This document shows, piece after piece, positions 28,782 through 63,800 of a stretch of 64,000 bases of DNA. Under the pieces are notes generated by a model, which had not been told where the DNA came from, did not search any database, and worked only from the letters and a program-made list of their open reading frames with translations. The first letter of the stretch is position 1. Every line of letters begins with the position of its first letter. The DNA comes from Escherichia coli (GTDB lineage Bacteria > Pseudomonadota > Gammaproteobacteria > Enterobacterales > Enterobacteriaceae): the NCBI RefSeq assembly GCF_030013205.1, contig NZ_CP122648.1; one strand, 5' to 3'. A program made the translations under genes and the position numbers.

Positions 28782-28783
28782 AC

Positions 28784-36409: not shown

Positions 36410-36533
36410 CATTTTTTAACTGTTCTACCAAAATTTGCGCTATCTCAATTTGGGCCAGGAAAGCATAACTTAGACTTTCAAGGTTAATTATTTTCCTGGT
36501 TTATATTTGTGAAGCATAACGGTGGAGTTAGTG

Positions 36534-39246: not shown

Positions 39247-39288
39247 TCCTAACATCCTGAAATGTGCGGGGTGCCCCGCACCAATTTG

Positions 39289-40143
39289 TTAACCTGCAAT
39301 AGCCATTCCTACCGTCATGTGCAGGCCATAAAAGAGCACACGCCCGATCATCTCACCGCCAAGTATGAGGATTAGCCCCAGAATAAGTCCGGCAACGTGA
39401 GGTTCACGGCGACGAATGAGCGGACAAAGCCAGCATCCTAGACCTGTGCATAACAATACCACACGCCAGACCTGTAAGGAGGCGTAATCTGGTACCAGTG
39501 CGCTGGCTTGTTGTACGGATGAGTGAATAGACGCCAGAGACAAACCTTGCAGCACAATCACCCCGGCACAAGCGATCAGCGCCAGAACGCTAATGATGGC
39601 AAATGTTGTGGTATTAAATGTAACGCGGGCTGCCCGCAGAATTGTGGCAGCAAGTATTGGACCGCTCAACAATACTGTCAGGAAGAAAGCCAGCGTAGTG
39701 TAACCGTTATACCAGGTTGGCACTGTGTCGATTTGATACACGCAGGTCATCATCCAGACGAAAATGACGCCGAGCGCCATGCTGACAAGTAACCAGAGTT
39801 TCCCCAACGCTTGCGGCATTTTACCGATGACCGCCACCAGCCACCATAATCCGCCAACGGCAAAAAATATGGAACCGGCAGCAATCTCGTTACTCAGACC
39901 AGAAGCTCCGATTCGATTCAGCGAGTTAAACGCCCGCAGTGGGGATCCCAGGTGCATGACAGAGGCAATAAACCCGATGCCCATCAACAGCCAGAGGAAA
40001 AACATGCCACGAACAATGTGCTGACGGTCTGCGTCATTTTTGGCGGCGAACCAGCCAATTCCGCTAACAATCAGCGCGCCTACTACGCATTGACCCAATA
40101 CGGTAAAGATAACCAGTGGCCATTCATGCCATCCATTTCCCAT
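39289..40143 (-). CDS. ynfH: DmsC-type membrane anchor subunit YnfH
   Basis: ORF track gives 364 aa; trimmed to ATG at 40141-40143 (MGNGWHEWPL...) giving 284 aa. Confidence 0.9.
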   Translation of the reverse strand: MGNGWHEWPLVIFTVLGQCVVGALIVSGIGWFAAKNDADRQHIVRGMFFLWLLMGIGFIASVMHLGSPLRAFNSLNRIGASGLSNEIAAGSIFFAVGGLWWLVAVIGKMPQALGKLWLLVSMALGVIFVWMMTCVYQIDTVPTWYNGYTTLAFFLTVLLSGPILAATILRAARVTFNTTTFAIISVLALIACAGVIVLQGLSLASIHSSVQQASALVPDYASLQVWRVVLLCTGLGCWLCPLIRRREPHVAGLILGLILILGGEMIGRVLFYGLHMTVGMAIAG

Positions 40144-40144
40144 T

Positions 40145-40762
40145 TTACACTTCCTCCGGATTAGCCAGATAACCAGTGGTATCGCCGGTTGGGCGGCTGT
40201 TGGCGTTAGGTTTGATAACGATATTGGGTTTTGTGAAATGCGCGCGCGGCAGTGGCGCGACGGCAGCCAGAGTGCCGTGCTTCTGGCGCAGCTCTTCAAT
40301 TGGACCGAACTCAAGTGCACGCAGCGGGCAGGATTCGACACATATGGGTTGTTTCCCCTCGGCGACGCGCGAATAACAACCATCGCACTTCGTCATGTGC
40401 CCTTTTTCAGCATTGTACTGTGGCGCGCCGTACGGACAAGCCATGTGGCAGTAGCGGCAGCCGATACAAACATCTTCATCAACCACCACAAAGCCATCTT
40501 CACGCTTATGCATTGCGCCGCTGGGGCAGACTTTTGTACATGCGGGGTCATCGCAATGGTTACAGGAGATGGAGAGATAATAAGCGAACACGTTCTGGTG
40601 CCAGACGCCATTATCTTCCTGCCAGTCGCCGCCAGCATATTCATAAATACGGCGGAAACTGACTTCCGGGCCAAGATCTTTAAAATCTTTGCACGCCAGT
40701 TCGCAGGTTTTACAGCCAGTACAGCGGCTGGAATCGATAAAAAATCCATATTGTGTGGTCAT
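40145..40762 (-). CDS. ynfG: DmsB-type 4Fe-4S ferredoxin subunit YnfG
   Basis: 205-aa ORF with four Cys clusters of CxxCxxCxxxCP type. Confidence 0.93.
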   Translation of the reverse strand: MTTQYGFFIDSSRCTGCKTCELACKDFKDLGPEVSFRRIYEYAGGDWQEDNGVWHQNVFAYYLSISCNHCDDPACTKVCPSGAMHKREDGFVVVDEDVCIGCRYCHMACPYGAPQYNAEKGHMTKCDGCYSRVAEGKQPICVESCPLRALEFGPIEELRQKHGTLAAVAPLPRAHFTKPNIVIKPNANSRPTGDTTGYLANPEEV

Positions 40763-40772
40763 GGGCTACTCC

Positions 40773-43199: not shown

Positions 43200-43256
43200 T
43201 ACTCACTTATTGCTTTTCAAACAAAATGTCATGCCAGAATTTATGGTTGTAGAGGG

Positions 43257-48481: not shown

Positions 48482-48610
48482 ACCATTCACGGCGCAAATA
48501 TACGCCTTTTTTTGTGATCACTCCGGCTTTTTTTGATCTTTATGCTTGTATGGTAGTAGCTCAGTTGCGTAGATTTCATGCATCACGACAAGCGATGCAA
48601 GGAATCGAAC

Positions 48611-49825
48611 ATGAAGATCGTAAAGGCTGAAGTTTTTGTTACCTGTCCGGGGCGTAATTTCGTCACATTAAAAATCACCACTGAGGACGGTATTACGGGC
48701 CTTGGGGATGCCACCCTCAATGGACGTGAGCTTTCCGTGGCCTCTTATTTGCAGGATCACCTTTGTCCGCAGCTTATTGGTCGCGATGCGCACCGTATCG
48801 AAGATATCTGGCAGTTTTTCTATAAAGGTGCTTACTGGCGTCGCGGTCCGGTTACGATGTCGGCCATTTCAGCGGTTGATATGGCGCTGTGGGATATTAA
48901 AGCCAAAGCTGCCAACATGCCGCTTTACCAGTTACTCGGCGGCGCGTCTCGTGAAGGGGTGATGGTTTATTGCCATACCACCGGTCACAGTATTGATGAA
49001 GCTCTGGATGATTATGCTCGTCATCAGGAGCTGGGATTCAAAGCCATCCGCGTGCAGTGCGGAATCCCTGGTATGAAAACCACCTACGGCATGTCGAAAG
49101 GTAAAGGTCTGGCTTATGAACCCGCAACCAAAGGACAGTGGCCGGAAGAGCAGCTGTGGTCGACGGAGAAATACCTCGATTTCATGCCGAAATTGTTTGA
49201 CGCGGTACGTAACAAGTTTGGTTTTAATGAACATTTGCTGCATGACATGCACCATCGCTTAACGCCTATTGAAGCGGCGCGCTTTGGTAAAAGCATTGAA
49301 GATTATCGCATGTTCTGGATGGAAGACCCGACGCCTGCGGAAAACCAGGAATGCTTCCGTCTCATTCGCCAACATACCGTCACACCCATCGCGGTGGGTG
49401 AAGTCTTCAACAGCATCTGGGACTGCAAGCAACTGATTGAAGAGCAACTTATCGATTATATCCGCACCACGCTGACCCATGCAGGCGGAATTACCGGTAT
49501 GCGCCGGATTGCCGATTTTGCTTCGTTGTATCAGGTACGTACTGGCTCACACGGTCCTTCCGATTTGTCACCAGTCTGCATGGCTGCGGCGCTGCACTTT
49601 GATCTGTGGGTCCCCAATTTCGGTGTCCAGGAGTACATGGGTTATTCCGAACAAATGCTTGAAGTCTTCCCGCACAACTGGACTTTCGATAACGGCTATA
49701 TGCATCCGGGAGACAAACCGGGTCTTGGCATCGAATTCGATGAAAAGCTGGCGGCGAAATATCCCTATGAACCTGCTTATCTGCCAGTCGCACGTCTGGA
49801 AGATGGCACGCTGTGGAACTGGTAA
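48611..49825 (+). CDS. rspA: starvation-sensing protein RspA (enolase superfamily, mannonate dehydratase-like)
   Basis: ORF trimmed to ATG at 48611 ([17 protein letters not shown]...) giving 404 aa. Confidence 0.93.
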
Positions 49826-49836
49826 GGAGTAAGATA

Positions 49837-50856
49837 ATGAAAAGCATTTTAATTGAAAAACCGAATCAACTGGCAATTATCGAACGCGAAATACCCACCC
49901 CGTCAGCGGGTGAAGTACGAGTAAAAGTGAAACTTGCCGGAATTTGTGGTTCAGATAGCCATATTTATCGTGGGCATAATCCTTTTGCGAAATATCCGCG
50001 CGTCATTGGTCATGAATTCTTTGGCGTCATTGATGCAGTGGGTGAAGGCGTGGAAAGCGCCAGAGTCGGTGAACGCGTTGCTGTCGATCCGGTGGTCAGC
50101 TGTGGGCATTGCTATCCGTGCTCTATAGGTAAGCCGAACGTTTGTACGACACTGGCTGTATTAGGTGTGCACGCTGACGGTGGTTTCAGTGAATATGCCG
50201 TGGTGCCGGCAAAAAATGCGTGGAAAATTCCTGAAGCAGTGGCCGATCAATATGCGGTGATGATCGAACCTTTTACCATTGCGGCTAACGTAACCGGACA
50301 TGGTCAACCGACTGAAAATGATACCGTTCTGGTTTACGGTGCCGGTCCAATCGGCCTGACGATCGTTCAGGTATTAAAAGGCGTCTATAACGTTAAAAAT
50401 GTGATTGTTGCCGATCGCATTGATGAACGACTGGAAAAAGCGAAAGAGAGCGGGGCAGACTGGGCGATTAATAACAGCCAGACACCGCTTGGCGAGATTT
50501 TCGCTGAAAAAGGCATCAAGCCGACATTAATTATCGATGCGGCTTGTCATCCTTCTATCCTGAAAGAGGCTGTAACGCTGGCTTCTCCGGCGGCACGTAT
50601 TGTATTGATGGGGTTCTCCAGTGAACCGTCTGAAGTGATTCAGCAAGGAATTACCGGAAAAGAACTCTCTATTTTTTCTTCACGCTTAAATGCAAATAAA
50701 TTCCCGGTCGTTATCGACTGGTTAAGTAAAGGGTTAATTAAACCAGAAAAATTAATTACCCATATGTTTGATTTCCAGCATGTTGCTGATGCCATTAGTT
50801 TATTTGAACAGGATCAAAAACATTGCTGCAAAGTCTTACTCACTTTTTCTGAATAA
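49837..50856 (+). CDS. rspB: zinc-dependent alcohol dehydrogenase-family protein RspB
   Basis: ORF trimmed to ATG at 49837 with GGAG upstream, giving 339 aa; GHEFFG / GxGxxG motifs. Confidence 0.93.
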   Translation: MKSILIEKPNQLAIIEREIPTPSAGEVRVKVKLAGICGSDSHIYRGHNPFAKYPRVIGHEFFGVIDAVGEGVESARVGERVAVDPVVSCGHCYPCSIGKPNVCTTLAVLGVHADGGFSEYAVVPAKNAWKIPEAVADQYAVMIEPFTIAANVTGHGQPTENDTVLVYGAGPIGLTIVQVLKGVYNVKNVIVADRIDERLEKAKESGADWAINNSQTPLGEIFAEKGIKPTLIIDAACHPSILKEAVTLASPAARIVLMGFSSEPSEVIQQGITGKELSIFSSRLNANKFPVVIDWLSKGLIKPEKLITHMFDFQHVADAISLFEQDQKHCCKVLLTFSE

Positions 50857-50913
50857 TACCAATAACGGCGAGTAAGTAGTACGCATCTTACCTCTTTTTT
50901 AGAGATAACCATT

Positions 50914-51024
50914 ATGACAATAGAAAAACACGAAAGAAGCACTAAGGATTTGGTGAAAGCAGCAGTATCGGGATGGCTGGGCACTGCGCTTGAATTTATG
51001 GATTTCAAGAGTCATGCGTGTTAA
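50914..51024 (+). pseudogene. ydfJ: 36-codon 5' remnant of an MFS transporter gene (ydfJ-like) cut off at the prophage junction
   Basis: Hand translation MTIEKHERSTKDLVKAAVSGWLGTALEFMDFKSHAC*; resembles an MFS N-terminus and stops just before the integrase gene. Confidence 0.5.
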
Positions 51025-51043
51025 CTATTTGATAAATATTAAA

Positions 51044-52339
51044 TTAATTTTTCATTGCTTCGTTATGGGGCATGGTTGGGGCAAACTCGCTTAACTGTGT
51101 ATTTAACAAAGCTACCTGTGCATTATTGTTTTCAGACATCCATTTTCCGTATACCTGAAATACCATTTGCGCATCTGCATGGCCCATCTGGTTTGCTATA
51201 AATGCCGGGTTAGCACCAGCTGTCAGCGACCAGCAGGCATAAGTATGTCTCGACTGATATGATTTTCGATGGCGGAGTCCGGCACGTTTTATCGCTGCGT
51301 CCCACATCTGCCTTATTGAGTCAACGGTAAAATGGTCACCATAATTTTTTACTCTCGCTGACACTTCAGGTTGAAAAACAAAGGTGCATTTTTGTTTTTC
51401 TGTTCTGCCATACTCTCTGAGGTGAACATCAATGATATGCTCTTTGCTCAGTCTCGTTAATGTCATCTGACTCCGGAGAGCGTCGATTGCTGGCTTAATA
51501 AGATGAATGACCCGATTGGTTCCCGCCTGTGTTTTTGGTACCGTGAAACGGTCTTTTGCTAAATTTCTCCTGATCATCATTGTTCCATTTTTCAGATCTA
51601 TGTCCTCCCATCCAAGTGCACACAGCTCACCAGGGCGAACTCCAGTATAAACAGAAACACACCATAAATTTTTTGCTTGCTGATTTCTGCACGCATCGAT
51701 AAGACGGATAAATTCTTCCCGCGAAAGAGGATCCGGAATGGTTCTTGATTCCTTTAATGGCGAGATCCCCTTAAACGGATTATCTGCCAGGTAACCGTTA
51801 TCAACACCAAACTGGAACACGGCGTTAAGATTTGTCATGTAATTATTTACAGTTACAGCCGATCTCCCTGGTTGTGTAACAATATAGTTACTTTTGGGGA
51901 TCTGGTATCCAGTCAGTAACTCTTTACGAACCTCCAGTAATTTTTCTTTATTAATCGATGAGGCAAGATTTTTTTCACCGATTATGCTCAGGATATTTTT
52001 GATGACGGCACGGTATGTGTTGAGTGATGTTTTGGCGACTTCAGTTTCTTTCAGTGCCAGAAATTTTTCAGCCAGTTCTTTTATGGTTAAATCTTGTCGG
52101 GCCTCACCAAATTTTTCCAGATTGCGTGAGGAGGGAAACTGTTTTGCATAGTCGAAAACACCAGTTTTTATTGCGTAACAAACAGAGGAGCGTAGTTCAC
52201 CTGCAACGCGCCTGTTTTTTGCTGTGTCAGGAACCCCCAGATTTTCCCTGACTCTTACGTCTTTATAAACAAACCAGATACGTAATTTCCCTCCATGGTT
52301 TTCCACGCCTGTCGGATATTTCATTTCAACTTCTCTCAT
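51044..52339 (-). CDS. phage tyrosine integrase
   Basis: 431-aa ORF with C-terminal R..H..R..Y catalytic-type residues (HTYACW...ANQMGHADAQMVFQVYGKW); start could be the Met 5 codons in (52324). Confidence 0.85.
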   Translation of the reverse strand: MREVEMKYPTGVENHGGKLRIWFVYKDVRVRENLGVPDTAKNRRVAGELRSSVCYAIKTGVFDYAKQFPSSRNLEKFGEARQDLTIKELAEKFLALKETEVAKTSLNTYRAVIKNILSIIGEKNLASSINKEKLLEVRKELLTGYQIPKSNYIVTQPGRSAVTVNNYMTNLNAVFQFGVDNGYLADNPFKGISPLKESRTIPDPLSREEFIRLIDACRNQQAKNLWCVSVYTGVRPGELCALGWEDIDLKNGTMMIRRNLAKDRFTVPKTQAGTNRVIHLIKPAIDALRSQMTLTRLSKEHIIDVHLREYGRTEKQKCTFVFQPEVSARVKNYGDHFTVDSIRQMWDAAIKRAGLRHRKSYQSRHTYACWSLTAGANPAFIANQMGHADAQMVFQVYGKWMSENNNAQVALLNTQLSEFAPTMPHNEAMKN

Positions 52340-52358
52340 TAGTTAGTGTGGCTTTTAG

Positions 52359-52610
52359 TCAAGTAAGATGACGTCTTGGTCTCGCTGATGCCTGGCGCTC
52401 AATCCAGCGATCAATTTCTTCCAGGTTGTAAAAGCATGGACTGTTATCCCATGGCATACCGTCATGAGCGACATGCTTATATTCCCTTCCTTCCATAAAC
52501 GATTTTTCCCGGGCCTTTTTTAACGTACCTTTTTTTATTCCTTTCAGCGCAATTAACTGCTCTTCGGATACCCATTTGCCGGGAGAGACAATCATGATTA
52601 CTTCGCTCAT
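52359..52610 (-). CDS. putative excisionase (Xis)
   Basis: 83-aa basic ORF immediately upstream of int in the same orientation; typical xis position. Confidence 0.6.
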   Translation of the reverse strand: MSEVIMIVSPGKWVSEEQLIALKGIKKGTLKKAREKSFMEGREYKHVAHDGMPWDNSPCFYNLEEIDRWIERQASARPRRHLT

Positions 52611-52682
52611 CGATTTCTTTATCTCTTACATCAGACGAGCGCCGGTTGCAGAATACCAGTCACAACCGGCGACAGTTGAACA

Positions 52683-55154
52683 TTAAGAATCAGCCTGACT
52701 CGGGATCAGTTTTTGCCAGATAACTGAAACGTATTTTGCCTGGTAACGGGCGTCATCAAGTGCATTATGGCGCTCACCTTCGAATGGAATAGCCGTTCTG
52801 GCATCGAAGTCTATGGCTTTCCCCAGCTCAACGATTGTGCGTACATCGCGATCGTTGTAGTAACGCCACGGGCAGGGGATCCCCTGCCGTTCGTATGAAC
52901 GGCGCAAAATCGTGTTGTCGAAGTTGGCTCCATTTCCCCAAACCTGAACAAAAAATTCACCGGAGTTTTCGTCGATAAATTCTCGCAATTGTAACAGTGC
53001 ATCATCTAACGGGATTTCATCGGTCATAATGGCAGATTGCGCTTCGCGTGATTGCTTAAGCCACCATTTAATGGTGTCCCGATCAATGACTCCGCCAGCA
53101 GTTTCCAGATCGATAGTCTTACTAAATTCCGGTCCCATATCTCCGGTTTGCGGATCGAAAAATATTGCACCTATTGAGATGATCGGGGCATCAGGATTTT
53201 TTCCCATGGTTTCAAGGTCGATCATTAGATGGTCACACGTCCTGCTGGTGGATGTGATTTCGTGATGACCGTTCACCTTAATTGGGTGATCTGCCGTCTC
53301 GCCAGTTTCATTATCGCTATTGTGATGCTGATTGCCGCCAGTGTTCTCCTTGTGTGGATGTTCAGCGCCTTCCATTTCCTCCGGATCATCTTCCTGAACT
53401 TCAACCTGATACTCTTCATCGAATGTTTCTTGGTATGTTGCGTCGCCCATCACCGCGCCACAATCAGGGCAGTTGCCGCCGCCGGTCTGACCGCAGGCGG
53501 TGCAGACTTTTTCCACTTCCTGTTGCGCTACTGGTTCAGGCTGTTTCGTTTCTGGCTCGTTTTGTAACGCATTTGGACTGTTTTGTTCCGCTTTTTGGTA
53601 GTTCCGTTCCGATTCATGCTGGTTCTGGTTCACAGAATCGCGGGTCTGGAGCCCCTTAACCCATTTCGGATCATTCGGGTCACTAATCCCTTCAACAAAT
53701 TCACCACGTGATGCAGCAAGCAACTTATCGGCGTCAGGCTGGCTGATATTGGCTGCCTGCATAATTTTGTTTACTTCGTCAGCGGTAACTTTTATCGGCT
53801 CTGGTTGTTCTGAATCTTCAGCGGTATCTACATTTTGCGGTAAGCCCGTGTATGTGCCATTTTTTCGGGCAAAATATTCTTCTTTTGTGATTTCAGTGGC
53901 GCCAGCAGCCAGTGCCTTATCCAGACCAGAGAGTTTGTTTGCGCGACCGTATTTTTCTCCGTCCTTATCTGCGAAGAGGAAATAGAACGGCCCCTCACGC
54001 TCTACAGATGGTTCAGCTTCCGGCGCGGTTTCATTTTTTGGGATATCAGATACCTCAGTTTCCACTGCATCAGTTTGTGTTTCTGATGACTGGAGAACAT
54101 CAACAGTGCCCAGGTCTGTTTCTTCATTCTCAAACACGCCCTTTGTCGTCAGGTATTCGCAGATATATTTGTTCAGTGCTACGGGATCTTTGTGAATGTC
54201 GATCGGACGCTCACGGACAAGGCCAAAAATAGTTTGGCGGTCGTAGCGAAGGGCATCAGGCTGTTTGCGCATTGATGCCGAGATACGCTTCCAGTCTTCG
54301 CGGTCGTTGTCGATAACTTCTTTTTTTGCCCAGCGATGGATGCTGCCGTCAATGTTTCCGGCATCCACATCACTAGGCCAGAGAGCGTAGGCCAGTTCGT
54401 CATCCAGTGTTTTCCATGTCTGCTTGTATTCGCGATGAATGGCAGCAATGACCGGGCTGATTTTTCCTGTTGAATTTTCAGTGTACTGTTGATTGGCTCT
54501 GGCGCGGGCGAGATCAACAACAGACGTGTATTTTCCGGTTTCCTTGCGTTCACCTTCGCGACGTTTTTTCCAGATGCGCATCTCTGCCTGAATTTCGGGC
54601 CATTTAGCACCAGGAATACATTTATGCTTAACCCACCCAATGGCGTGCAACTTAAGCTCCGGATACATGGCGTTAACTTCTGGCATTTTCATCAACGCTT
54701 CAACGATATGTCCGTCGAATGTTGCCATGTCTTCCTGCAACAATTCCTGTGCGCTAATAACCATATCAACGGTGATGTTTTCACATGTGTCGAACTTAAC
54801 CATGACAGCGTTCTGTACTTCAGGGGCCAGCTTGTCAAAAGTGACGTTCATCGGATCGGATTCAGTCTCAACCGGGACAAAAGAAGCAGACTCCTCATCC
54901 CAGCGGTTTTCCTGCATATATTCAGCATCCCATGAATCGAGGGCAGGGCGGGGTATGCCAGGTTTATCCTCGCAGACAATAAATTTATAAGCGCAGTCCT
55001 GAGCAGCCGGATAATGTTCCAGGAATTGCCAGTGAAATTTTGCTCGAGCACGGCGTTCGTCGCCAGCTTCAATGGCTGTGGCTACAGCCACAGCGCCTTC
55101 TTCCCTTGTTGCCAGTTCGTCAGGAATAGCGGCGCAAATAAAGACTTTACTCAT
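52683..55154 (-). CDS. prophage exonuclease, C-terminal DEDDh (DnaQ-like) 3'-5' exonuclease domain
   Basis: ORF track start at 55190 is TTG; ATG at 55152-55154 has GAGG upstream and gives about 823 aa; motifs IDLETMG, WGNGANFD, HNALDDARYQAKY; central CTACGQTGGGNCPDCG. Confidence 0.75.
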   Translation of the reverse strand: MSKVFICAAIPDELATREEGAVAVATAIEAGDERRARAKFHWQFLEHYPAAQDCAYKFIVCEDKPGIPRPALDSWDAEYMQENRWDEESASFVPVETESDPMNVTFDKLAPEVQNAVMVKFDTCENITVDMVISAQELLQEDMATFDGHIVEALMKMPEVNAMYPELKLHAIGWVKHKCIPGAKWPEIQAEMRIWKKRREGERKETGKYTSVVDLARARANQQYTENSTGKISPVIAAIHREYKQTWKTLDDELAYALWPSDVDAGNIDGSIHRWAKKEVIDNDREDWKRISASMRKQPDALRYDRQTIFGLVRERPIDIHKDPVALNKYICEYLTTKGVFENEETDLGTVDVLQSSETQTDAVETEVSDIPKNETAPEAEPSVEREGPFYFLFADKDGEKYGRANKLSGLDKALAAGATEITKEEYFARKNGTYTGLPQNVDTAEDSEQPEPIKVTADEVNKIMQAANISQPDADKLLAASRGEFVEGISDPNDPKWVKGLQTRDSVNQNQHESERNYQKAEQNSPNALQNEPETKQPEPVAQQEVEKVCTACGQTGGGNCPDCGAVMGDATYQETFDEEYQVEVQEDDPEEMEGAEHPHKENTGGNQHHNSDNETGETADHPIKVNGHHEITSTSRTCDHLMIDLETMGKNPDAPIISIGAIFFDPQTGDMGPEFSKTIDLETAGGVIDRDTIKWWLKQSREAQSAIMTDEIPLDDALLQLREFIDENSGEFFVQVWGNGANFDNTILRRSYERQGIPCPWRYYNDRDVRTIVELGKAIDFDARTAIPFEGERHNALDDARYQAKYVSVIWQKLIPSQADS

Positions 55155-55246
55155 TTGTTTTAACCTCATGACAGATTTAAGGATGAACAAATCCCTGCCA
55201 TTGCTGGCATATAAGAATGAAACCGGATATTTATTACGGAACTGTT

Positions 55247-55438
55247 TTAAAGACCTGCCGGGATTTCGATATTATCCTGGTGAATAACTTTATCGACCGG
55301 GTAACAGTTACCGGGAATTTTCTGTTCGGTTGCTGCAGTCATACACTCCTGCATTGTCCAGTGAACACTGACTGCAATATCAACTGGCTCTCCGGAAACA
55401 AGAAAAACTGTCAGAACAAGCACAAATGCTGAATTCAT
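55247..55438 (-). CDS. ydfD: Qin prophage small protein YdfD
   Basis: ORF trimmed to MNSAFVLVLTVFLVSG... (63 aa); ATG overlaps the dicB stop (ATGA). Confidence 0.8.
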   Translation of the reverse strand: MNSAFVLVLTVFLVSGEPVDIAVSVHWTMQECMTAATEQKIPGNCYPVDKVIHQDNIEIPAGL

Positions 55439-55623
55439 TGTGCACATCCTTTTGGCATCAGACGTAAACGAGCCAGCATTGAAACAATGCATATTTTATT
55501 TAATAGCTCCCGTTCTTGTTTTCTCTTGTTAATGGCATCTTCAGTAAATACTGGGTTACTGATAGTGACACCAATTTCAAAACAACCTTCAGACGTATTA
55601 ACGTTTGGTAATAACGTTTTCAT
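55435..55623 (-). CDS. dicB: cell division inhibitor DicB
   Basis: ORF trimmed to 62 aa MKTLLPNVNTSEGCFEIGVTISNPVF...; recognised as DicB. Confidence 0.9.
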   Translation of the reverse strand: MKTLLPNVNTSEGCFEIGVTISNPVFTEDAINKRKQERELLNKICIVSMLARLRLMPKGCAQ

Positions 55624-55797
55624 TATCGCGTCCTCAACAATGAATTTTGTGATGCAGTGCCTGGTGCCTCCAGGTGACGTTAACCAGTTAACAATTAACG
55701 CCGGATACAGAGAATCCACCCATAACACTGTTTTTGGTTTTAACTGTTCCGCGTGCGCTCAGCCGCATTCACCACATCACAAAATTCACTTTAAAAA

Positions 55798-55850
55798 GGG
55801 CAGCAGAGCAGTCACGGAGTAAAACTGATACCGCCAAACGTCACCAGAAA
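55798..55850 (-). ncRNA. dicF: DicF small regulatory RNA
   Basis: Minus strand reads UUUCUGGUGACGUUUGGCGGUAUCAGUUUUACUCCGUGACUGCUCUGCUGCCC followed by UUUUU; matches remembered DicF; sits between ydfC and dicB. Confidence 0.85.
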
Positions 55851-56190
55851 ATTGATAACAGAGGGCGTTGCAGCGGGGTTGTCACTTAAGCGTATGGTCA
55901 ACCTGACAACCCGGTGTCCTCAACGGGGAAGGAATAACCCCGCCATACTTACCGCCGCGCCATTTCGCGGGTTGCCACAACCGGAAGCGCACGGTCGACG
56001 AAAATTTAACGACAGGCTATCTATGAACCAGCTACCTCGCCGTGCGCTTTCGCGTTATGGTCTGACTTTTCAGGGAAATATCCTTTCAGTAAACTGTCAG
56101 TTCCGGATGCGCACCCGTGTCCGGCGCACGCACTCCACCTCACCCGTGGAGAACTCCTTAATTACTAACCTTAGCTTTGTTGATTAGCTA

Positions 56191-56409
56191 CTAACGCGGG
56201 TATGTAATCATTCTGGCAATGCTTAATGCCGCTGCTTTTTCCAGATTGGTGATATCCTGCTCCAGAGCGGACAGATTTTCAGCCTGCTTAGCCCTGGCTT
56301 CATTAGCCCATTTCAGATCCTGCGCTGCATTAATTTTCTGGCGCATCCACTCATAAAGTTCATCATCGGTATAGTCTGGCGCGATGATGACGGGTTCTCG
56401 TTTCTGCAT
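56191..56409 (-). CDS. ydfC: Qin prophage protein YdfC
   Basis: 72-aa ORF in the dicB operon upstream of dicF. Confidence 0.8.
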   Translation of the reverse strand: MQKREPVIIAPDYTDDELYEWMRQKINAAQDLKWANEARAKQAENLSALEQDITNLEKAAALSIARMITYPR

Positions 56410-56438
56410 ACTGATTCCTCGCGGTGCTGTTTCGCTTA

Positions 56439-56567
56439 TCAGCCGTTAGATTTTGCCGAACTGGAAAGCGCCTGTTTAAACTCACTGAAGCTGAGAGCTT
56501 CTTCGCCTTCGGCAAGGCCTTCGAAGTATTCTTCGTAAGCCTTTTCCATGATTGTGTCGAAATCCAT
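56439..56567 (-). CDS. ydfB: Qin prophage small protein YdfB (42 aa)
   Basis: Hand-translated MDFDTIMEKAYEEYFEGLAEGEEALSFSEFKQALSSSAKSNG*; below the ORF-track cutoff. Confidence 0.75.
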   Translation of the reverse strand: MDFDTIMEKAYEEYFEGLAEGEEALSFSEFKQALSSSAKSNG

Positions 56568-56568
56568 A

Positions 56569-56724
56569 TCACTCACCTGAGTTTCTTTCCAGCCAGCGAC
56601 GGGCACCATTTTCGGTTTTAAACGTTTTGCTTTTGGTATACGTCATTGCGGTGAACGTGCCGTCCTGGTTTGGAAACACGCCGTACACCAGAGATTCGTT
56701 GTTGCCAAGATCGATAGTATCCAT
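56569..56724 (-). CDS. ydfA: Qin prophage small protein YdfA (51 aa)
   Basis: ORF trimmed to MDTIDLGNNESLVYGVFPNQDGTF...; first gene after dicA. Confidence 0.75.
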   Translation of the reverse strand: MDTIDLGNNESLVYGVFPNQDGTFTAMTYTKSKTFKTENGARRWLERNSGE

Positions 56725-56890
56725 GCTGACCTCATTTCCCCTTAACGCTGGGGTAGCGGAACTGTTTGCTGAGAACACCGTGCGGTGTGTTGATGCAAAC
56801 AAGATTAGCCATGACTAACATATCGGTCAAGTGATTTTGTATGCTATAGCTAACATAATTGATGTGGTAAAAGATAACTCATTGATGATG

Positions 56891-57298
56891 TTATCTTTTA
56901 TTTGTCCGCTGACGGGCTTTTAGTAATTCTTCAAAGAGTTTATTGAAGTTTTTTACTCGAGCTCGCATTTCGGCGAGCTGGGTATCCTGTTCTGATTCTG
57001 GCAGTGCATTAAACAGCTCAAGGAGCTCTAGTTCTTTGGGGGATAAGGCAACTGGCTTCTCAACAGGTGGTGTTGGTTGCTTGTCTTCATCGCCAAATAG
57101 AATCCATGTTGGTGAGCATTGCAATACTTTGCTGAGGGCAAAAAGGTTCTTCCCTGTAGGTTCACTATCACCCCGTTCCCATTGTGATACAGACACATGG
57201 GAGATTTTCAGGGCTTTAGCAAGAGAGCTTTGGGTGTGTTTGAGGTTTTTCCGACGATACCTGATGCGTTCGCCGATAGTTAAATTTTTTGTTTCCAT
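56891..57298 (-). CDS. dicA: XRE-family HTH repressor DicA (cI-like)
   Basis: 135-aa ORF with N-terminal HTH; divergent from dicC. Confidence 0.92.
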   Translation of the reverse strand: METKNLTIGERIRYRRKNLKHTQSSLAKALKISHVSVSQWERGDSEPTGKNLFALSKVLQCSPTWILFGDEDKQPTPPVEKPVALSPKELELLELFNALPESEQDTQLAEMRARVKNFNKLFEELLKARQRTNKR

Positions 57299-57381
57299 AG
57301 TTAGCTAATGCTAAATCGTATTGACTATGTTTTTGTTAACATCTATCTTGTTAGTTATGACTAACAATAAAGGTGTTTTAA
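57299..57381. promoter_or_regulatory. dicA-dicC divergent promoter/operator region
   Basis: 83-bp AT-rich spacer containing dyads TTAGCTAA and TTAGT-TATG-ACTAA between divergent repressor genes. Confidence 0.55.
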
Positions 57382-57612
57382 ATGCTTAAAACTGACGCTC
57401 TTTTGTATTTCGGTTCAAAAACAAAACTTGCACAAGCAGCAGGTATTCGTTTGGCTTCGCTTTATAGCTGGAAAGGGGATTTAGTTCCCGAAGGTCGCGC
57501 GATGCGTCTACAGGAGGCATCTGGCGGGGAGCTTCAGTATGATCCCAAAGTTTATGATGAATATCGTAAGACGAAGCGGGCGGGGCGGTTGAACAATGAA
57601 AATCACTCCTGA
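57382..57612 (+). CDS. dicC: Cro-like regulator DicC
   Basis: 76-aa ORF divergent from dicA; recognised as DicC. Confidence 0.9.
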   Translation: MLKTDALLYFGSKTKLAQAAGIRLASLYSWKGDLVPEGRAMRLQEASGGELQYDPKVYDEYRKTKRAGRLNNENHS

Positions 57613-57919
57613 ACAGGCTCGTGAGGCTCTGGATGCCTGGATATGTCGACCAGGAATGACACAGGAGCAGGCGACGATATTAATCACTGAAGCATTCTGG
57701 GCTTTGAAAGAGCGCCCGAACATCGATGTTCAGCGTGTCACATATGAAGGTGGCGCGATTGATCAGCGAGCGCTTGGCGTTATCTGGTCATCACCTGACG
57801 GAGAAATACGTCGCTACGACAGTCGCCTAAACATAATCTGTCGCGAGTGCCGGAAGAGCGAAGTTATGCAGCGCATACTGGCTTTCTATCAGGGTAATTT
57901 TCAGGACGTGGCGCAGTGA
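57596..57919 (+). CDS. hypothetical prophage protein (YdfX-like position), Cys-containing
   Basis: 107-aa ORF overlapping the dicC 3' end by 17 nt; CxxC at CRECRK; family not assigned. Confidence 0.5.
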   Translation: MKITPEQAREALDAWICRPGMTQEQATILITEAFWALKERPNIDVQRVTYEGGAIDQRALGVIWSSPDGEIRRYDSRLNIICRECRKSEVMQRILAFYQGNFQDVAQ

Positions 57920-58272
57920 GTGCACCGGCAACCATTCTTGATATGTGCTGTGGCAGCCGCATGTTCTGGTTCGATAAGTCTGACGAACGGGCGATATTCA
58001 GCGATATCAGAAAAGAAGGATACACATTACGCAATGGGAGACGCTTGATTATCAGCCCTGACATTATCGCAGATTTTCGTGCATTATCATTTGCAGACGC
58101 ATCTTTTTCGATGGTTGTATTAGACCCTCCGCATCTTGAGAGTGTTGGTGATAACGCCTGGATGGGAAAGAAATATGGACGGCTGAATAAAGATGCCTGG
58201 CGTGATGATTCGCGACAGAGATTTAAAGAAGCCTTTCGGGGGTTGAGGCCGCACGGCGTTCTGATTTTTTAA
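57916..58272 (+). pseudogene. short SAM-methyltransferase-like ORF, probably truncated
   Basis: 118-codon ORF starting at GTG overlapping the upstream stop; motif-I-like ILDMCCGS and DPPH (DPPY-like); ends at a T6 run. Confidence 0.4.
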
Positions 58273-58631
58273 TGGAATGAAACGCAAATACCGGTAAGCC
58301 AGATTCTGGCACTGACAGACAGAAAACCTGTTATCTGTCAACGAACAGGGAAAAAACGATAAAACCCACTGGATTATTTTTATGAAAGAGGCATCCAGTG
58401 AGTAGATTCGTAAGGCTACAGATACGTATATCTGAATAATTAAATTCAGTTCTGTAAATAAAATTTAATCCTTAACCGGATGGATTTCTGCACCCTCAGA
58501 ACATCAGGAGGCCGCCCGAAAGGGCGGTAGTGAAATGCGAATGTTCAAAATTATTATTGAAACGGGAATAGCTGGTGGAGATTTTGAGGATGTATTCGAA
58601 GTGGACGATGACGCAACACCTGAGGAAATTC

Positions 58632-58886
58632 ATGACGGAGCATAAGAAATTTTCTTTAACTACTGCAATTACTCATACCACGAAATAAAAGACGATGAGG
58701 AAGAACAAAGTGGCTGATTTTTGTTCAGCTAAATATAACATCAGTTTTGAAGAGCGGGATGAACTATTAATGGACTATGGTGAGTTACGCGGTGGAAGTG
58801 CTGCTGATGTCGAATCCTAGCGTGATGACTATGAAGCGGGAAAAACTCCGGTCGAAGCATATTGTGATGAGTGGGGCGATGAATGA
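58632..58886 (+). pseudogene. reading frame interrupted by in-frame TAA and TAG, otherwise open
   Basis: Hand translation MTEHKKFSLTTAITHTTK*KTMRKNKVADFCSAKYNISFEERDELLMDYGELRGGSAADVES*RDDYEAGKTPVEAYCDEWGDE*. Confidence 0.3.
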
Positions 58887-59170
58887 GCGAGATTAATTAT
58901 CAGGAAGGGCATGAAACGGCGGGGCAAGCAAAACCAGTGGCATGGCGATATCGCTACGTGAAAAAAGGCGTTACGGACTTTCAGGGGAAGTAGTGGTCTG
59001 GTGACTGGAAATATGTACCGAAAAAAGAGGATTGTAACGACAGGCCGAACTATCAAATTCAGGCCTTATTCACTGCCTCACCAGTCCCAGTTACATCAGA
59101 AGAACTGGTTAAAGCTGTGCACTTTTATGAACAACTAAAACGCGAAAATCCACCAACATCCGGCAACTAG
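58883..59170 (+). pseudogene. reading frame interrupted by one in-frame TAG, start overlaps previous stop (ATGA)
   Basis: Hand translation MSEINYQEGHETAGQAKPVAWRYRYVKKGVTDFQGK*WSGDWKYVPKKEDCNDRPNYQIQALFTASPVPVTSEELVKAVHFYEQLKRENPPTSGN*. Confidence 0.3.
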
Positions 59171-59424
59171 ATTAATGGATTAACTATGTCGGTTAAACGA
59201 CCAGCCAACTGAAAAAGCGGAAACCTGATTACAGGTTGCCAGATAAGGCAATGAGCTACCTGGCGCGGAACGGACTGATAAGTATGGGGAATGTTTTACG
59301 ATGAACCTTTAGACTAAAGAGTTTGTAACGCTATGTAAGTGATTTTTTCTGGTTTAGATATTTATATGTCCGGCCAAATTGAGGTGTGTTTAAATGTAAT
59401 TGCACATTGATTGTAGGAGGAATA

Positions 59425-59604
59425 ATGAAAAACGCATTGCAGTTTTTGTTTGTTGCGTTCTGGTTGTTCGCATCATGTATGCCCATCATCTTCACAGCAA
59501 GGTATATGGAAAAAGTTGATGTTTTGATATTAATATTTGGATATATAAATGCCCTTTTTTTAGGGGTGTTCATGGCGGTCATGTGCATTGAATACTGGCG
59601 GTAA
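59425..59604 (+). CDS. 59-aa hydrophobic (two predicted TM) small protein
   Basis: MKNALQFLFVAFWLFASCMPIIFTARYMEKVDVLILIFGYINALFLGVFMAVMCIEYWR; GGAGG about 6 nt upstream of the ATG. Confidence 0.45.
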   Translation: MKNALQFLFVAFWLFASCMPIIFTARYMEKVDVLILIFGYINALFLGVFMAVMCIEYWR

Positions 59605-59938
59605 ATACAGCGAACTCCATTGGTTTAGTTGGATATTTACTGTGCTGGACAAAAACGGTTTGCGGGGAAATCTTAGTTAAGTAGAATGACTGCGGGTGCT
59701 TGAGGCTATCTGCCTCGGGCATGGACACCAACGGCAGATAGAGAAAAGCCCCAGTTAACATTACGCGTCCTGCAAGACGCTTAACATTAATCTGAGGCCA
59801 ATTTCATGCTAGACACATGTAGGTTAGCCTCTTACGTGCCGAAAGGCACGGAGAAGCAGGCTATTGTTAACACCAAGTTGTAATGTCCCCTTTGAACCAT
59901 TCTAAAATGTCCCCAGACAATTCTCTGGGGGATTTTTC

Positions 59939-61252
59939 ATGATCAAAGAGACTGTTACGATGAGTCATAAGGAACTCCACCGACTTCAGATTATTCAGGA
60001 ACAAGCTGCGGCACGCATTGGCATTTCTATTCGGCAGGTTAAACGTCTGGTGCAACGGTATAGAAATGAAGGGCCTTCTGGTCTGGTTTCCCACCGACGT
60101 GGAAAGCGTCCTAATAATTCCTTTTCTACTGAATTCAGAGCAACAGTAATTTCACTCCTCAAAGGCCGTTACGCTGATTTTGGACCTACGTTTGCGTGCG
60201 AAAAATTGCGCGAGATACACGGTTTATCTTTATCCGTTGAAACTCTCAGAAAGTGGATGATAGAAGAGGGGTTATGGCGTGAACGCCGTCGTAAAATTGC
60301 CCGTATATATCAACGCCGCATGCGACGACCATCTTACGGTGAACTGATCCAGATTGATGGCTCACCTCATGACTGGTTTGAAAATCGAGGCCCCAGATGT
60401 ACACTGATCGTTTTCATTGATGATGCCACCAGTGCGTTGATGGCGTTGCGTTTTGTGCCTGCTGAAACAACCCGGGCTTACATGGAAACCCTCCGGGGTT
60501 ACCTTAATGATCATGGCGTACCGCTCGCTCTCTACTCTGATAGACACAGTATATTCAGGGTAAATAACCCAGAGCGGGAAGGTGAGCTGACCCAGTTCAC
60601 TCGTGCGATAAAGACACTGGGCATCGAGCCAATCCATGCCAACAGCCCGCAGGCAAAAGGGCGGGTAGAGCGCGCCAATCAGACACTACAGGACAGGCTG
60701 GTCAAAGAAATGCGGCTTCAGAATATCAGTGATATTGAAACAGCAAATGCATGGTTGCCGACCTTTATTGAAGCCTATAACAACCGGTTCGCTACGTCGC
60801 CTCGTACTACTGATAATGCTCATCTTGATGTGCACCATTCTGAAGAGGAACTGGGTTATATCTTCAGCCTACAGGCGAAGCGCGTTCTGTCTAAAAATCT
60901 CACTTTCCAGTACAAAAGCAGTGCGTTTCAGGTACGCAGTGAGGGCCGGGGATATCGACTTAGGCATTCGGTTGTTACTGTATGCGAGAACTTTGACGGT
61001 GAAATTAACGTTCTGTATGACGGGAAAGCGCTGGGCTGGGAAAAGTATGTTGATGGCCCGGAGCCTATACCACTGGATGATGAAAAGAGTGTCCATGAAC
61101 GAGTGGATAATGCCCGTATTGATTTACGCTCAAAATACTATGTTAAACCTAAAGCTGACCATCCCTGGCTTACGCGCCGAACGCAAAGTCATCAGCAAGT
61201 TAAGCCCCCGAAGTTACCTAAAAAGAAGCCTGATCCCGATAAAAAAGATTGA
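59939..61252 (+). CDS. DDE transposase with N-terminal HTH and rve-type integrase core (IS481/ISNCY-like), Lys-rich tail
   Basis: 437-aa ORF; HTH at IGISIRQVKRLVQRY; acidic residues in DGSPHDW / FIDDATS / RVERANQ context; family assigned from memory only. Confidence 0.65.
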   Translation: MIKETVTMSHKELHRLQIIQEQAAARIGISIRQVKRLVQRYRNEGPSGLVSHRRGKRPNNSFSTEFRATVISLLKGRYADFGPTFACEKLREIHGLSLSVETLRKWMIEEGLWRERRRKIARIYQRRMRRPSYGELIQIDGSPHDWFENRGPRCTLIVFIDDATSALMALRFVPAETTRAYMETLRGYLNDHGVPLALYSDRHSIFRVNNPEREGELTQFTRAIKTLGIEPIHANSPQAKGRVERANQTLQDRLVKEMRLQNISDIETANAWLPTFIEAYNNRFATSPRTTDNAHLDVHHSEEELGYIFSLQAKRVLSKNLTFQYKSSAFQVRSEGRGYRLRHSVVTVCENFDGEINVLYDGKALGWEKYVDGPEPIPLDDEKSVHERVDNARIDLRSKYYVKPKADHPWLTRRTQSHQQVKPPKLPKKKPDPDKKD

Positions 61253-63548: not shown

Positions 63549-63800
63549 ATGATGAACATCGAAGAACTGCGTAAAATTTTTTGTGAAGATGGCCTCTATG
63601 CTGTGTGCGTTGAAAATGGAAATCTTGTTAGTCATTACCGCATTATGTGTTTGCGAAAGAATGGGGCTGCGTTAATTAATTTTGTGGATGCTCGGGTCAC
63701 GGACGGATTTATCTTGCGCGAAGGTGAGTTTGTCACTTCATTACAGGCATTGAAAGAGATCGGAATAAAAGCTGGCTTTTCTGCTTTTTCAGGAGAATAA
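63549..63800 (+). CDS. rem: Qin prophage protein Rem
   Basis: 83-aa ORF MMNIEELRKIFCEDGLYAVC... at the position of rem after hokD. Confidence 0.7.
   Translation: MMNIEELRKIFCEDGLYAVCVENGNLVSHYRIMCLRKNGAALINFVDARVTDGFILREGEFVTSLQALKEIGIKAGFSAFSGE

What the first reader, a model, noticed from the sequence alone, without database searches (positions are those of the whole stretch)
51025..57612. Prophage early-left arm reads as intact: dicA-controlled operon running ydfA-ydfB-ydfC-dicF-dicB-ydfD-exonuclease-xis-int
Every gene from dicA through int is an uninterrupted ORF on one strand with tight or overlapping junctions (ATGA at dicB/ydfD; 19 nt between xis and int). From memory, the K-12 copy of this prophage has a disrupted integrase and a fragmentary exonuclease, so this copy may still excise or at least express a full division-inhibitor, lysis and recombination module. 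I cannot confirm the K-12 comparison here.
Basis: partly seen in the sequence, partly recalled or inferred. Interest (0 to 1): 0.5.

Follow-up and report, generated by a model that had tools for sequence, protein, structure and literature searches.

The report
Undamaged left arm of Qin prophage
This is the ordinary, undamaged form of the left arm of the E. coli Qin prophage (repressor, cell-division inhibitors, lysis protein, exonuclease, excisionase, integrase); the K-12 copy is a derived, IS2-damaged minority version, so the finding is correct but already known.

Summary
On the minus strand of window 51044-57298 lie uninterrupted int, xis, an 823-aa exonuclease, ydfD, dicB, DicF RNA, ydfC, ydfB, ydfA and dicA, with dicC divergent. 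MG1655 replaces window 52204-54387 (the first ~40 int codons, all of xis, exonuclease residues 256-823) with a 706-bp IS2 remnant.

The intact form is common, annotated and present in sequenced phages:
- At least 80% of int-xis-exo occurs in 2284 of 5426 complete E. coli genomes; the K-12 junction occurs in 352.
- The arm is 99.9% identical to phage PhiR42_1 and about 99% to Tritos and HannyBb.
- Xis is identical in all four phages compared, and Int is 99-100% identical.

Excision looks possible. The 11-bp att core TTATGGATTTC flanks the prophage in a near-identical genome, the rejoined ends match phage attP at 99%, and the rejoined host site exists uninterrupted in 2010 genomes.

The element is still defective: deletions removed the replication initiator and about 20 kb of head and tail genes.

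The 'recombination module' is only a DnaQ-like 3'-5' exonuclease with no annealing protein. Transcription reading through from dicBp to int is inferred, not shown.

Verdict: real, ordinary, low interest.

The parts
50996..51006 (.). att core TTATGGATTTC at the int-proximal prophage junction, inside the 5' end of host gene ydfJ (the ynfP remnant ORF 50914-51024)
   Evidence: The same 11-mer lies at the far junction in the near-identical genome (L004 27760-27770). The rejoined host site is uninterrupted in 2010/5426 genomes. The rejoined phage ends match attP of four phages at 99%. The position agrees with the GenBank Qin boundary in MG1655.
51044..52324 (-). int: tyrosine integrase, 426 aa, full length
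   Evidence: Pfam Arm-DNA-bind_2 (aa 4-67) and Phage_integrase (aa 201-392). phrog_1 integrase, E = 3.5e-75. 100% identical to PhiR42_1 Int and 99% to Tritos, HannyBb and mEp460_ev081. R230, K264, R359, H382 and Y392 are in place by alignment to Tn1549 Int. The exact sequence is seen on at least 1000 contigs.
52359..52610 (-). xis: excisionase, 83 aa; absent from K-12
   Evidence: phrog_539 excisionase, E = 1.4e-35. 100% identical in four phages. It lies inside the K-12 deletion.
52683..55154 (-). Exonuclease, 823 aa. N-terminal part (aa 1-257) of unknown function, middle part similar to the non-catalytic middle of RecE, C-terminal DnaQ/Rv2179c-like 3'-5' exonuclease domain. K-12 ydfE is its first 255 codons.
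   Evidence: Pfam PF16473 at aa 642-813, E = 5e-67. NCBIfam RecE model matched only at profile positions 271-600, 281 bits against a cutoff of 1269. phrog_2082 matched over the full length. 99-100% identical to three phages.
55247..55438 (-). ydfD: lysis protein, 63 aa, carrying the lineage-specific R27W change
   Evidence: RefSeq annotation, phrog_1092, alignment. Function from PMC8835842.
55435..55623 (-). dicB: cell-division inhibitor, 62 aa; overlaps ydfD by ATGA
   Evidence: NCBIfam NF049927, 132.8 bits against a cutoff of 100. No difference from K-12.
55798..55849 (-). DicF small RNA with its terminator hairpin; a C-to-U change in the 3' stem (window 55802) turns a G-C pair into G-U
   Evidence: Rfam RF00039, 71.1 bits. 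Alignment to K-12 and three phages. Hairpin energy -13.7 against -15.9 kcal/mol.
56191..56724 (-). ydfC (56191-56409), ydfB (56439-56567) and ydfA (56569-56724): the first genes of the dicBF operon, function unknown
   Evidence: RefSeq annotation, PHROG matches, identical to K-12.
56725..56890 (-). dicBp promoter region with two operator-like sites related to TGTTAG-N6-CTAACA (56805-56820 and 56843-56857)
   Evidence: Repeat search. Sequence identical to K-12, where DicA represses dicBp 22-fold (bioRxiv 10.1101/2023.04.14.536235).
56891..57298 (-). dicA: immunity repressor, 135 aa, carrying the lineage-specific R24S change in the helix-turn-helix region
   Evidence: NCBIfam NF007257, 233 bits against a cutoff of 101. 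Alignment. The S24 allele is on 106 contigs, the R24 allele on at least 1000.
57299..57381 (.). dicA-dicC divergent control region with the palindromic operator TGTTAGTTATGACTAACA (57349-57366)
   Evidence: identical to K-12.
57382..57612 (+). dicC: Cro-like regulator, 76 aa
   Evidence: NCBIfam NF007282, 159.5 bits against a cutoff of 130.
57596..57922 (+). Scar of the 1.6-kb replication-module deletion: a truncated ydaT/cII-like gene fused to a truncated DUF977 (lygF-like) gene
   Evidence: RefSeq pseudogene flags. PhiR42_1 positions 7804-9407 (cII', O, lygF') are missing here.
63549..63800 (+). rem: antirepressor of DicA, 83 aa
   Evidence: 100% identical to K-12 Rem. Function from bioRxiv 10.1101/2023.04.14.536235.

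Best explanation
The region is the early-left (lambda pL-like) arm of a Qin-type lambdoid prophage integrated in the 5' end of ydfJ, in its ancestral, undamaged form. The K-12 copy is a derived version in which an IS2-associated deletion removed the 5' end of int, all of xis and the 3' two-thirds of the exonuclease gene.

Proposed mechanism:
1. DicA binds TGTTAG-N6-CTAACA-type operators upstream of ydfA and in the dicA-dicC spacer. This keeps dicBp and dicC off. This step was shown in K-12, and the control DNA here is identical.
2. Repression is lifted by the Rem antirepressor, by stress or by stochastic switching. [quoted passage not shown] This was also shown in K-12.
3. In this copy transcription would continue into the exonuclease gene, xis and int. 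This step is inferred.
4. Xis and Int would recombine the two 11-bp cores (TTATGGATTTC). That would excise a ~27.5-kb circle and restore an intact ydfJ. This step is inferred from identity to live phages and from the intact att arms.
5. The excised DNA could neither replicate nor be packaged by its own genes, because the O-like initiator and ~20 kb of head and tail genes are deleted. Excision would therefore amount to curing.
For: - Identity and ORF integrity.
- K-12 lesion mapped exactly.
- The intact form is the common one. At least 80% of int-xis-exo is present in 2284/5426 genomes, against 352 with the K-12 exo::IS2 junction.
- Sequenced phages carry the same arm. PhiR42_1 covers 100% at 99.9% identity; Tritos, HannyBb and mEp460_ev081 cover 82-86% at 95-99%. 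Int is 99-100% identical, Xis 100% and Exo 89-100%.
- The PhiR42_1 record contains a contiguous attP and overlapping ends, so it was assembled from excised or packaged DNA while encoding this exact Int.
- att core and arms. The empty site is uninterrupted in 2010 genomes, and the rejoined ydfJ reads through without a stop.
- The control region is identical to K-12, operator-like palindromes are present and Rem is 100% identical.
- Regulation in K-12: bioRxiv 10.1101/2023.04.14.536235. K-12 Qin does not excise because intQ is inactive: PMC3105296.
- Defectiveness of the rest of the prophage.
Against: - No experiment or read-level evidence of excision in this strain.
- attR and the late region lie outside the window. 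They were read from NZ_CP122719.1, which differs from the window at 1 base in the 13.3-kb overlap.
- The DicF intrinsic terminator sits between dicBp and the downstream genes. No N-like antiterminator is known for this phage type. K-12 northern blots detected nothing longer than ydfABC-dicF (bioRxiv 10.1101/2023.04.14.536235).
- The consensus scan found no convincing minus-strand promoter ahead of exo, xis or int, so how xis and int are expressed is unknown.
- The lineage carries DicA R24S, YdfD R27W and a weakened DicF hairpin, all of unknown effect.
- Int has Tyr rather than His at the first conserved histidine position (Y356). This is invariant in the phage copies.
Confidence: 0.85

Rival explanations
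1. The arm is intact in sequence but inert. xis and int are never expressed from the prophage state in this defective element, and the ORFs are unbroken only because the prophage is too young to have decayed.
For: - The prophage arm differs from K-12 at only 0.13% of sites, against 1.2% for the host flanks, so it is evolutionarily young.
- The DicF terminator lies upstream, and K-12 northern blots show no long transcript (bioRxiv 10.1101/2023.04.14.536235).
- No minus-strand promoter was found near xis or int.
- The cII-like activator that drives int transcription in lambda-type phages is truncated here.
Against: - The same arm, with the same DicF terminator, sits in phages sequenced as free or excised genomes. 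The architecture therefore permits xis and int expression.
- dicB, which lies downstream of the terminator, is expressed from dicBp when Rem is produced in K-12 (same preprint).
Confidence: 0.2
2. The whole prophage is functional and inducible, and can produce phage particles.
For: Int, Xis, both att sites, the immunity region, the Q antiterminator, the lysis cassette and nohA are present.
Against: - Compared with PhiR42_1, 1.6 kb carrying the O-like replication initiator is missing.
- About 20 kb from the large terminase subunit to the side tail fibre is also missing. RefSeq marks a truncated terminase abutting a truncated tail-fibre gene.
Confidence: 0.02
3. The element persists as a helper-dependent mobile element. 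It excises on its own but relies on a co-resident lambdoid phage for replication and packaging.
For: - The excision machinery, both att sites and the nohA/cos-proximal region are retained.
- These strains carry several related prophages, with 4-7 matching places per genome.
Against: - No satellite-type functions (helper interference, capsid redirection) were identified.
- At 27.5 kb the element is well below the usual lambda packaging range (general knowledge).
- Nothing in the data shows transfer.
Confidence: 0.05

Closest known systems
Cryptic prophage Qin (Kim) of E. coli K-12 MG1655: dicA/dicC, the dicBF operon, ydfE', IS2E, intQ'
   Same: - Same integration site in ydfJ and the same 11-bp core.
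- Same gene order.
- 99.85% identity over dicC to ydfE' and 99.9% over the retained part of int.
- Control DNA and Rem are identical.
   Different: - K-12 lacks window 52204-54387 (the first ~40 int codons, xis, Exo residues 256-823) and carries a 706-bp IS2 remnant instead.
- The K-12 deletions of the replication and morphogenesis regions have different endpoints (PhiR42_1 positions 7897-12695 and 24217-45352, against 7804-9407 and ~25692-45600 here). The two copies therefore decayed independently.
Escherichia phages PhiR42_1 (PV340562), Tritos (OV696610), HannyBb (PP925841) and mEp460_ev081 (LR597641)
   Same: - Same int-xis-exo-ydfD-dicB-DicF arrangement.
- Int is 99-100% identical and Xis 100%.
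- attP is 99% identical to the rejoined prophage ends.
- PhiR42_1 also shares the DicA/DicC immunity region.
   Different: - The phages keep the O-like replication gene and a full lambda-like head and tail gene set.
- Tritos, HannyBb and mEp460_ev081 have other repressors.
- None of the phages carries DicA S24, YdfD W27 or the DicF C-to-U change.
Lambda pL operon (N ... exo-bet-gam ... xis-int)
   Same: A repressor-controlled leftward early operon that ends in xis and int next to attP. A host-toxic division inhibitor lies in the same arm, as kil does in lambda. The dicBp/pL analogy is drawn in bioRxiv 10.1101/2023.04.14.536235.
   Different: - No N antiterminator is known.
- No Bet/RecT annealing protein and no Gam.
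- The nuclease is a DnaQ-like 3'-5' enzyme, not lambda Exo. This is the nuclease-only 'Tritos' class of Rec module in PMC12315714.
- An sRNA (DicF) with its own terminator is embedded in the operon.
Rac prophage of K-12 (a defective but excision-proficient lambdoid prophage)
   Same: A defective lambdoid prophage that keeps a working int/xis pair and both att sites, and carries a division inhibitor (kilR) in the early-left arm (PMC4632033, PMC3105296).
   Different: - Rac integrates in ttcA.
- Rac encodes RecE/RecT. Only the non-catalytic middle of RecE resembles the protein here.
- Excision of Rac is demonstrated; excision of this Qin copy is not.

Membership tests
Qin-type lambdoid prophage at ydfJ | Integrated in the 5' end of ydfJ next to rspB, flanked by a short direct repeat | tested here: met
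   The 11-bp TTATGGATTTC lies at window 50996-51006 and at L004 27760-27770. The rejoined site equals an intact rspB-ydfJ in 2010 genomes.
Qin-type lambdoid prophage at ydfJ | DicA/DicC immunity region followed by ydfABC-dicF-dicB-ydfD | tested here: met
   NCBIfam DicA, DicC and DicB above their cutoffs. Rfam DicF. 99.85% identity to K-12.
Tyrosine recombinase / lambda-Int-type phage integrase | N-terminal arm-binding domain plus C-terminal catalytic domain | tested here: met
   Pfam PF12167 (aa 4-67) and PF00589 (aa 201-392).
Tyrosine recombinase / lambda-Int-type phage integrase | Catalytic residues R, K, H, R, H and the tyrosine nucleophile | tested here: inconclusive
   R230, K264, R359, H382 and Y392 align with the Tn1549 Int active site. 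The first histidine position is Tyr (Y356). It is invariant in four phage copies, so it is probably the normal state of this clade. Activity was not measured.
Phage excisionase | Small DNA-binding protein encoded directly upstream of int, matching an excisionase profile | tested here: met
   phrog_539, E = 1.4e-35, full length. 100% identical in four phages. No NCBIfam hit.
RecE / exonuclease VIII | C-terminal 5'-3' nuclease domain; full-length match to the RecE equivalog model | tested here: not met
   NF007259 is matched only at profile positions 271-600 of 877, at 281.6 bits against a cutoff of 1269. The C-terminus is instead PF16473, Rv2179c-like 3'-5' exonuclease.
DnaQ/DEDD-type 3'-5' exonuclease (Rv2179c-like) | PF16473 domain with the acidic motifs and the histidine | tested here: met
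   PF16473, E = 5e-67, at aa 642-813. D646 and E648 (IDLE), D746 (NFD), H796 and D801 (HNALDD) are invariant across the phage copies. Weak match to PDB 8KEL exodeoxyribonuclease.
Lambda Red / RecET-type recombination module | A single-strand annealing protein (Bet/RecT/Erf) encoded beside the nuclease | tested here: not met
   The exonuclease ORF fills the whole interval between ydfD and xis. None of the arm's proteins matches an annealing-protein family. PMC12315714 lists the Tritos class as nuclease-only.
Intact (inducible, particle-forming) prophage | Replication initiator plus a complete head, tail and terminase gene set | tested here: not met
   PhiR42_1 positions 7804-9407 and ~25692-45600 are absent. 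RefSeq flags the ydaT, DUF977, large terminase and tail-fibre genes as truncated. This was read in the near-identical genome for the part beyond window position 64000.
DicF RNA (Rfam RF00039) | Score above the gathering threshold over the full model | tested here: met
   71.1 bits against 48, model positions 1-52 of 52.

The most novel reading that the evidence does not exclude
The only three substitutions private to this pig-ETEC lineage in the whole 6.6-kb arm fall in the repressor's helix-turn-helix region (DicA R24S), the lysis protein (YdfD R27W) and the DicF terminator stem (C-to-U, 2.2 kcal/mol weaker). None falls in the 4.1 kb of int-xis-exo and none is synonymous.

This could reflect selection that re-tunes or attenuates the toxic dicBF module, or that increases read-through towards xis and int, in a lineage whose Qin copy can still excise. 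It would be a small-scale example of host domestication acting on regulation rather than by gene loss.
Probability: 0.12. Interest if true: 0.35.

Novelty: already known. Interest (0 to 1): 0.1.

Why it matters
It matters little beyond bookkeeping.

K-12 is not representative of Qin. Most natural copies keep int, xis and the full exonuclease. Conclusions drawn from K-12, such as 'Qin cannot excise' or 'ydfE is a 306-codon gene', should not be transferred to wild strains.

In strains like this one, derepressing dicBp could both intoxicate the cell through DicB, DicF and YdfD and cure the prophage, restoring the ydfJ transporter gene. This is easily testable. It fits the established picture of partly decayed, excision-proficient lambdoid prophages such as Rac.

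Tried and rejected
- **Linear decay series.** I considered whether this copy is an intermediate on the path to the K-12 form. Rejected: K-12 retains PhiR42_1 positions 7804-7896, which this copy lacks, and the morphogenesis deletions have different endpoints. The two copies decayed independently.
- **RecE-type recombination exonuclease.** Rejected on the NCBIfam and Pfam results.
- **Whole prophage intact.** Rejected.
- **Promoter and terminator scan**. It gave fewer promoter-like sites than the shuffles and no credible minus-strand signal near exo, xis or int. It also missed the known DicF terminator, so it is uninformative here.
- **PDB sequence search for Int.** It found only distant recombinases (Tn1549 Int, XerA), which was enough to place the catalytic residues but nothing more.
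- **Literature search for PhiR42_1**. No paper describing it was found. How that genome was obtained is therefore inferred from the record's structure (contiguous attP, overlapping ends) and is not documented.
- **Data handling.** Loci fetched in parallel (L002, L006-L008) were not copied to the scripting machine. Comparisons with them were made with the alignment tools instead.
- **Not used.** Structure prediction and the large protein or metagenome searches, because the identifications were already unambiguous.
Full report
**1. The observation**

On the minus strand, all uninterrupted:
- int 51044-52324 (426 aa; 431 aa from the ATG at 52339)
- xis 52359-52610 (83 aa)
- a large exonuclease gene 52683-55154 (823 aa)
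- ydfD 55247-55438
- dicB 55435-55623
- ydfC 56191-56409
- ydfB 56439-56567
- ydfA 56569-56724
- dicA 56891-57298

dicC (57382-57612) is divergent on the plus strand. DicF RNA is at 55798-55849 on the minus strand (Rfam RF00039, 71.1 bits against a gathering score of 48).

NCBIfam places DicA, DicB and DicC above their curated cutoffs. PHROGs gives integrase, excisionase and exonuclease.

The ATGA overlap of dicB and ydfD is real. The '19 nt' between xis and int depends on the upstream ATG. The downstream ATG has the better ribosome-binding context (GAGAAG), is the one RefSeq uses, and gives 34 nt. Several junctions are not tight: 174 nt from dicB to DicF, 341 nt from DicF to ydfC, and 166 nt from ydfA to dicA, which holds the dicBp promoter.

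**2. The K-12 comparison**

The window is E. coli. The 8-kb stretch around the finding is 100% identical to a set of pig ETEC / O139:H1 chromosomes such as NZ_CP122719.1.

Aligned to MG1655:
- Window 48552-52203 matches rspA, rspB, ynfP and intQ' at 99.2% identity, without gaps.
- Window 54388-57782 matches ydfE' through dicC and ydfX at 99.85%, without gaps.
- The 2184 bp between them (52204-54387) is replaced in K-12 by the 706-bp IS2E remnant.

K-12 therefore lacks three things. It has lost the first ~40 codons of int, which is most of the arm-binding domain (Pfam aa 4-67). It has lost all of xis. It has lost exonuclease residues 256-823, which include the whole nuclease domain (Pfam aa 642-813).

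**3. How common the intact form is**

- At least 80% of int-xis-exo is present in one place in 2284 of 5426 complete E. coli genomes.
- The K-12-type exo::IS2 junction is present in 352, largely K-12 derivatives.
- An empty, uninterrupted rspB-ydfJ site is present in 2010.

The exact Int sequence of the window is on at least 1000 contigs in the protein collection. RefSeq already annotates these genes as site-specific integrase, excisionase family protein and exonuclease. The intact arm is the ordinary state, and K-12 is the derived minority.

**4. Relation to sequenced phages**

- Phage PhiR42_1 (host ECOR13) covers the whole arm at 99.9% identity.
- Tritos, HannyBb and mEp460_ev081 cover 82-86% at 95-99%.
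- Int is 100% identical to PhiR42_1 and 99% to the other three.
- Xis is 100% identical in all four.
- The exonuclease is 99-100% identical to three of them and 89% to mEp460_ev081.

The PhiR42_1 record holds a contiguous attP and has overlapping ends. It was therefore assembled from excised or packaged DNA while encoding this exact Int. No paper describing PhiR42_1 was found, so this point is an inference from the record.

**5. Attachment sites**

The far end of the prophage lies beyond window position 64000. I read it from NZ_CP122719.1, which differs from the window at one base in the 13.3-kb overlap.

- An 11-bp direct repeat, TTATGGATTTC, lies at window 50996-51006 and at the far junction, at the start of the truncated ydfJ.
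- Joining the host sides gives an open ydfJ reading frame. That sequence is found uninterrupted, at 99.5% identity, in 2010 genomes annotated with an intact ydfJ.
- Joining the phage sides gives an 805-bp sequence. It is colinear with, and 99% identical to, the attP regions of Tritos, HannyBb and mEp460_ev081 and of PhiR42_1.
- The core position agrees with the GenBank Qin boundaries in MG1655. It also agrees with the 20,458-bp single-att deletion made by Wang et al. (PMC3105296).

Integration of Qin in the 5' end of ydfJ is described in PMC6379469. ydfJ is listed as a prophage integration site in STEC in PMC8767318.

**6. The rest of the prophage is defective**

Measured against PhiR42_1 (~47.9 kb of unique sequence), the ~27.5-kb prophage of the near-identical genome lacks two blocks:
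- 1.6 kb (PhiR42_1 7804-9407), comprising the end of the cII/YdaT-like gene, the O-like replication initiator and the start of lygF/DUF977.
- About 20 kb, from inside the large terminase gene to the side tail fibre.

K-12's deletions have different endpoints (7897-12695 and 24217-45352). K-12 also keeps 93 bp that this copy lacks. The two copies are therefore independent decay products of the same phage type, not stages of one series.

**7. How it most likely works**

Shown in K-12, with the control DNA here identical:
- DicA represses dicBp.
- The transcript starts upstream of ydfA.
- The prophage-encoded antirepressor Rem lifts repression and causes DicB- and DicF-dependent filamentation.
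- dicBp also switches on spontaneously in a subpopulation.

All of this is from bioRxiv 10.1101/2023.04.14.536235 (also PMC10448788). Rem here is 100% identical to K-12 Rem.

Operator-like palindromes of the form TGTTAG-N6-CTAACA sit at 57349-57366, 56805-56820 and 56843-57857-region site 56843-56857.

YdfD is a lysis protein that inhibits IspG (PMC8835842).

Inferred: in this copy transcription continues into exo, xis and int, as in the lambda pL operon. Xis and Int then recombine the two att sites, and the excised circle is lost because it can neither replicate nor be packaged.

Against the single-operon reading:
- The DicF terminator lies in the path.
- No N-like antiterminator is known for this phage type.
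- K-12 northern blots saw nothing longer than ydfABC-dicF.
- The consensus scan found no promoter near xis or int.

In its favour:
- dicB, which lies downstream of the terminator, is expressed on derepression.
- Phages sequenced as free or excised genomes have the same layout, including the terminator.

**8. The 'recombination module'**

The 823-aa protein is not RecE. The RecE equivalog model is matched only in its non-catalytic middle (profile positions 271-600, 281.6 bits against a cutoff of 1269).

The C-terminus is an Rv2179c/DnaQ-like 3'-5' exonuclease domain (PF16473, E = 5e-67). Its acidic and histidine motifs are invariant across the phage copies.

No annealing protein is encoded in the arm. 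This is the nuclease-only 'Tritos' class of lambdoid Rec module described in PMC12315714. That paper also notes that DnaQ-like nucleases usually inhibit rather than promote homologous recombination.

**9. Lineage-specific changes**

Across the 6.6-kb arm, only three substitutions are private to this lineage relative to K-12 and PhiR42_1:
- DicA R24S (window 57227)
- YdfD R27W (55360)
- a C-to-U change in the 3' stem of the DicF terminator (55802)

Tritos and HannyBb also carry the ancestral states of YdfD and DicF. The hairpin keeps its shape but is 2.2 kcal/mol weaker.

The variant alleles are minor: 106 contigs for DicA S24 and 168 for YdfD W27, against at least 1000 each for the K-12 alleles.

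All three landing in dicA, ydfD and dicF (653 of 6606 bp) has a nominal chance of about 1e-3. The gene set was chosen after seeing the data. A fairer target set gives about 0.014. I record this as unexplained, not as a finding.

**10. Verdict**

The feature is the already-annotated, common, ancestral form of a well-studied prophage arm, so it is already known and of low interest.

The one useful message is that K-12 Qin is atypical. Copies like this one are probably still able to excise, which is cheap to test.

Noticed in passing
window 59939-61252 (+): This is one uninterrupted 437-aa ISNCY-family transposase ORF. RefSeq splits it into a 'partial transposase' (59960-60982) plus ydfW (61103-61252). 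K-12 homology resumes at 61068, so the K-12 gene ydfW (b1567, 49 aa) is just the last 49 codons of this transposase ORF.
   Followed up: partly
window 59694-59865 (+): Strong Rfam match to sok/hok regulatory RNA (RF01794, 104 bits) directly upstream of the ISNCY transposase ORF. No hok-like ORF follows it. It is probably a hok/sok locus cut by the insertion sequence. The whole 57783-61067 segment is absent from K-12.
   Followed up: no
window 55360, 55802, 57227: The three substitutions private to this lineage in the arm hit YdfD (R27W), the DicF terminator stem (C-to-U, -13.7 against -15.9 kcal/mol) and the helix-turn-helix region of DicA (R24S). None is synonymous and none lies in int-xis-exo.
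   Followed up: partly
window 48552-52203 compared with 54388-57782: The host genes rspA and rspB differ from K-12 at 27 sites in ~2.3 kb (1.2%). The adjoining prophage DNA differs at 6 sites in ~4.6 kb (0.13%). The prophage is therefore much more recently shared than the chromosomal backbone.
   Followed up: no
window 57596-57922 (+); PhiR42_1 (L005) 7804-9407: A 1.6-kb deletion fuses a truncated ydaT/cII-like gene to a truncated DUF977/lygF-like gene and removes the O-like replication initiator. In the listed hits it appears confined to the pig ETEC / O139 group. The other 99.9%-identical genomes carry the extra ~1606 bp.
   Followed up: partly
window 51421 (int codon 302): The K-12 intQ remnant has F302 where this copy and all four phages have L. 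The K-12 pseudogene has therefore also picked up at least one amino-acid change in addition to its truncation.
   Followed up: no
L005 (PhiR42_1) 6878 and 6887, equivalent to window 56857 and 56866: PhiR42_1 differs from both this window and K-12 at two bases in or next to the dicBp operator-like site 56843-56857.
   Followed up: no
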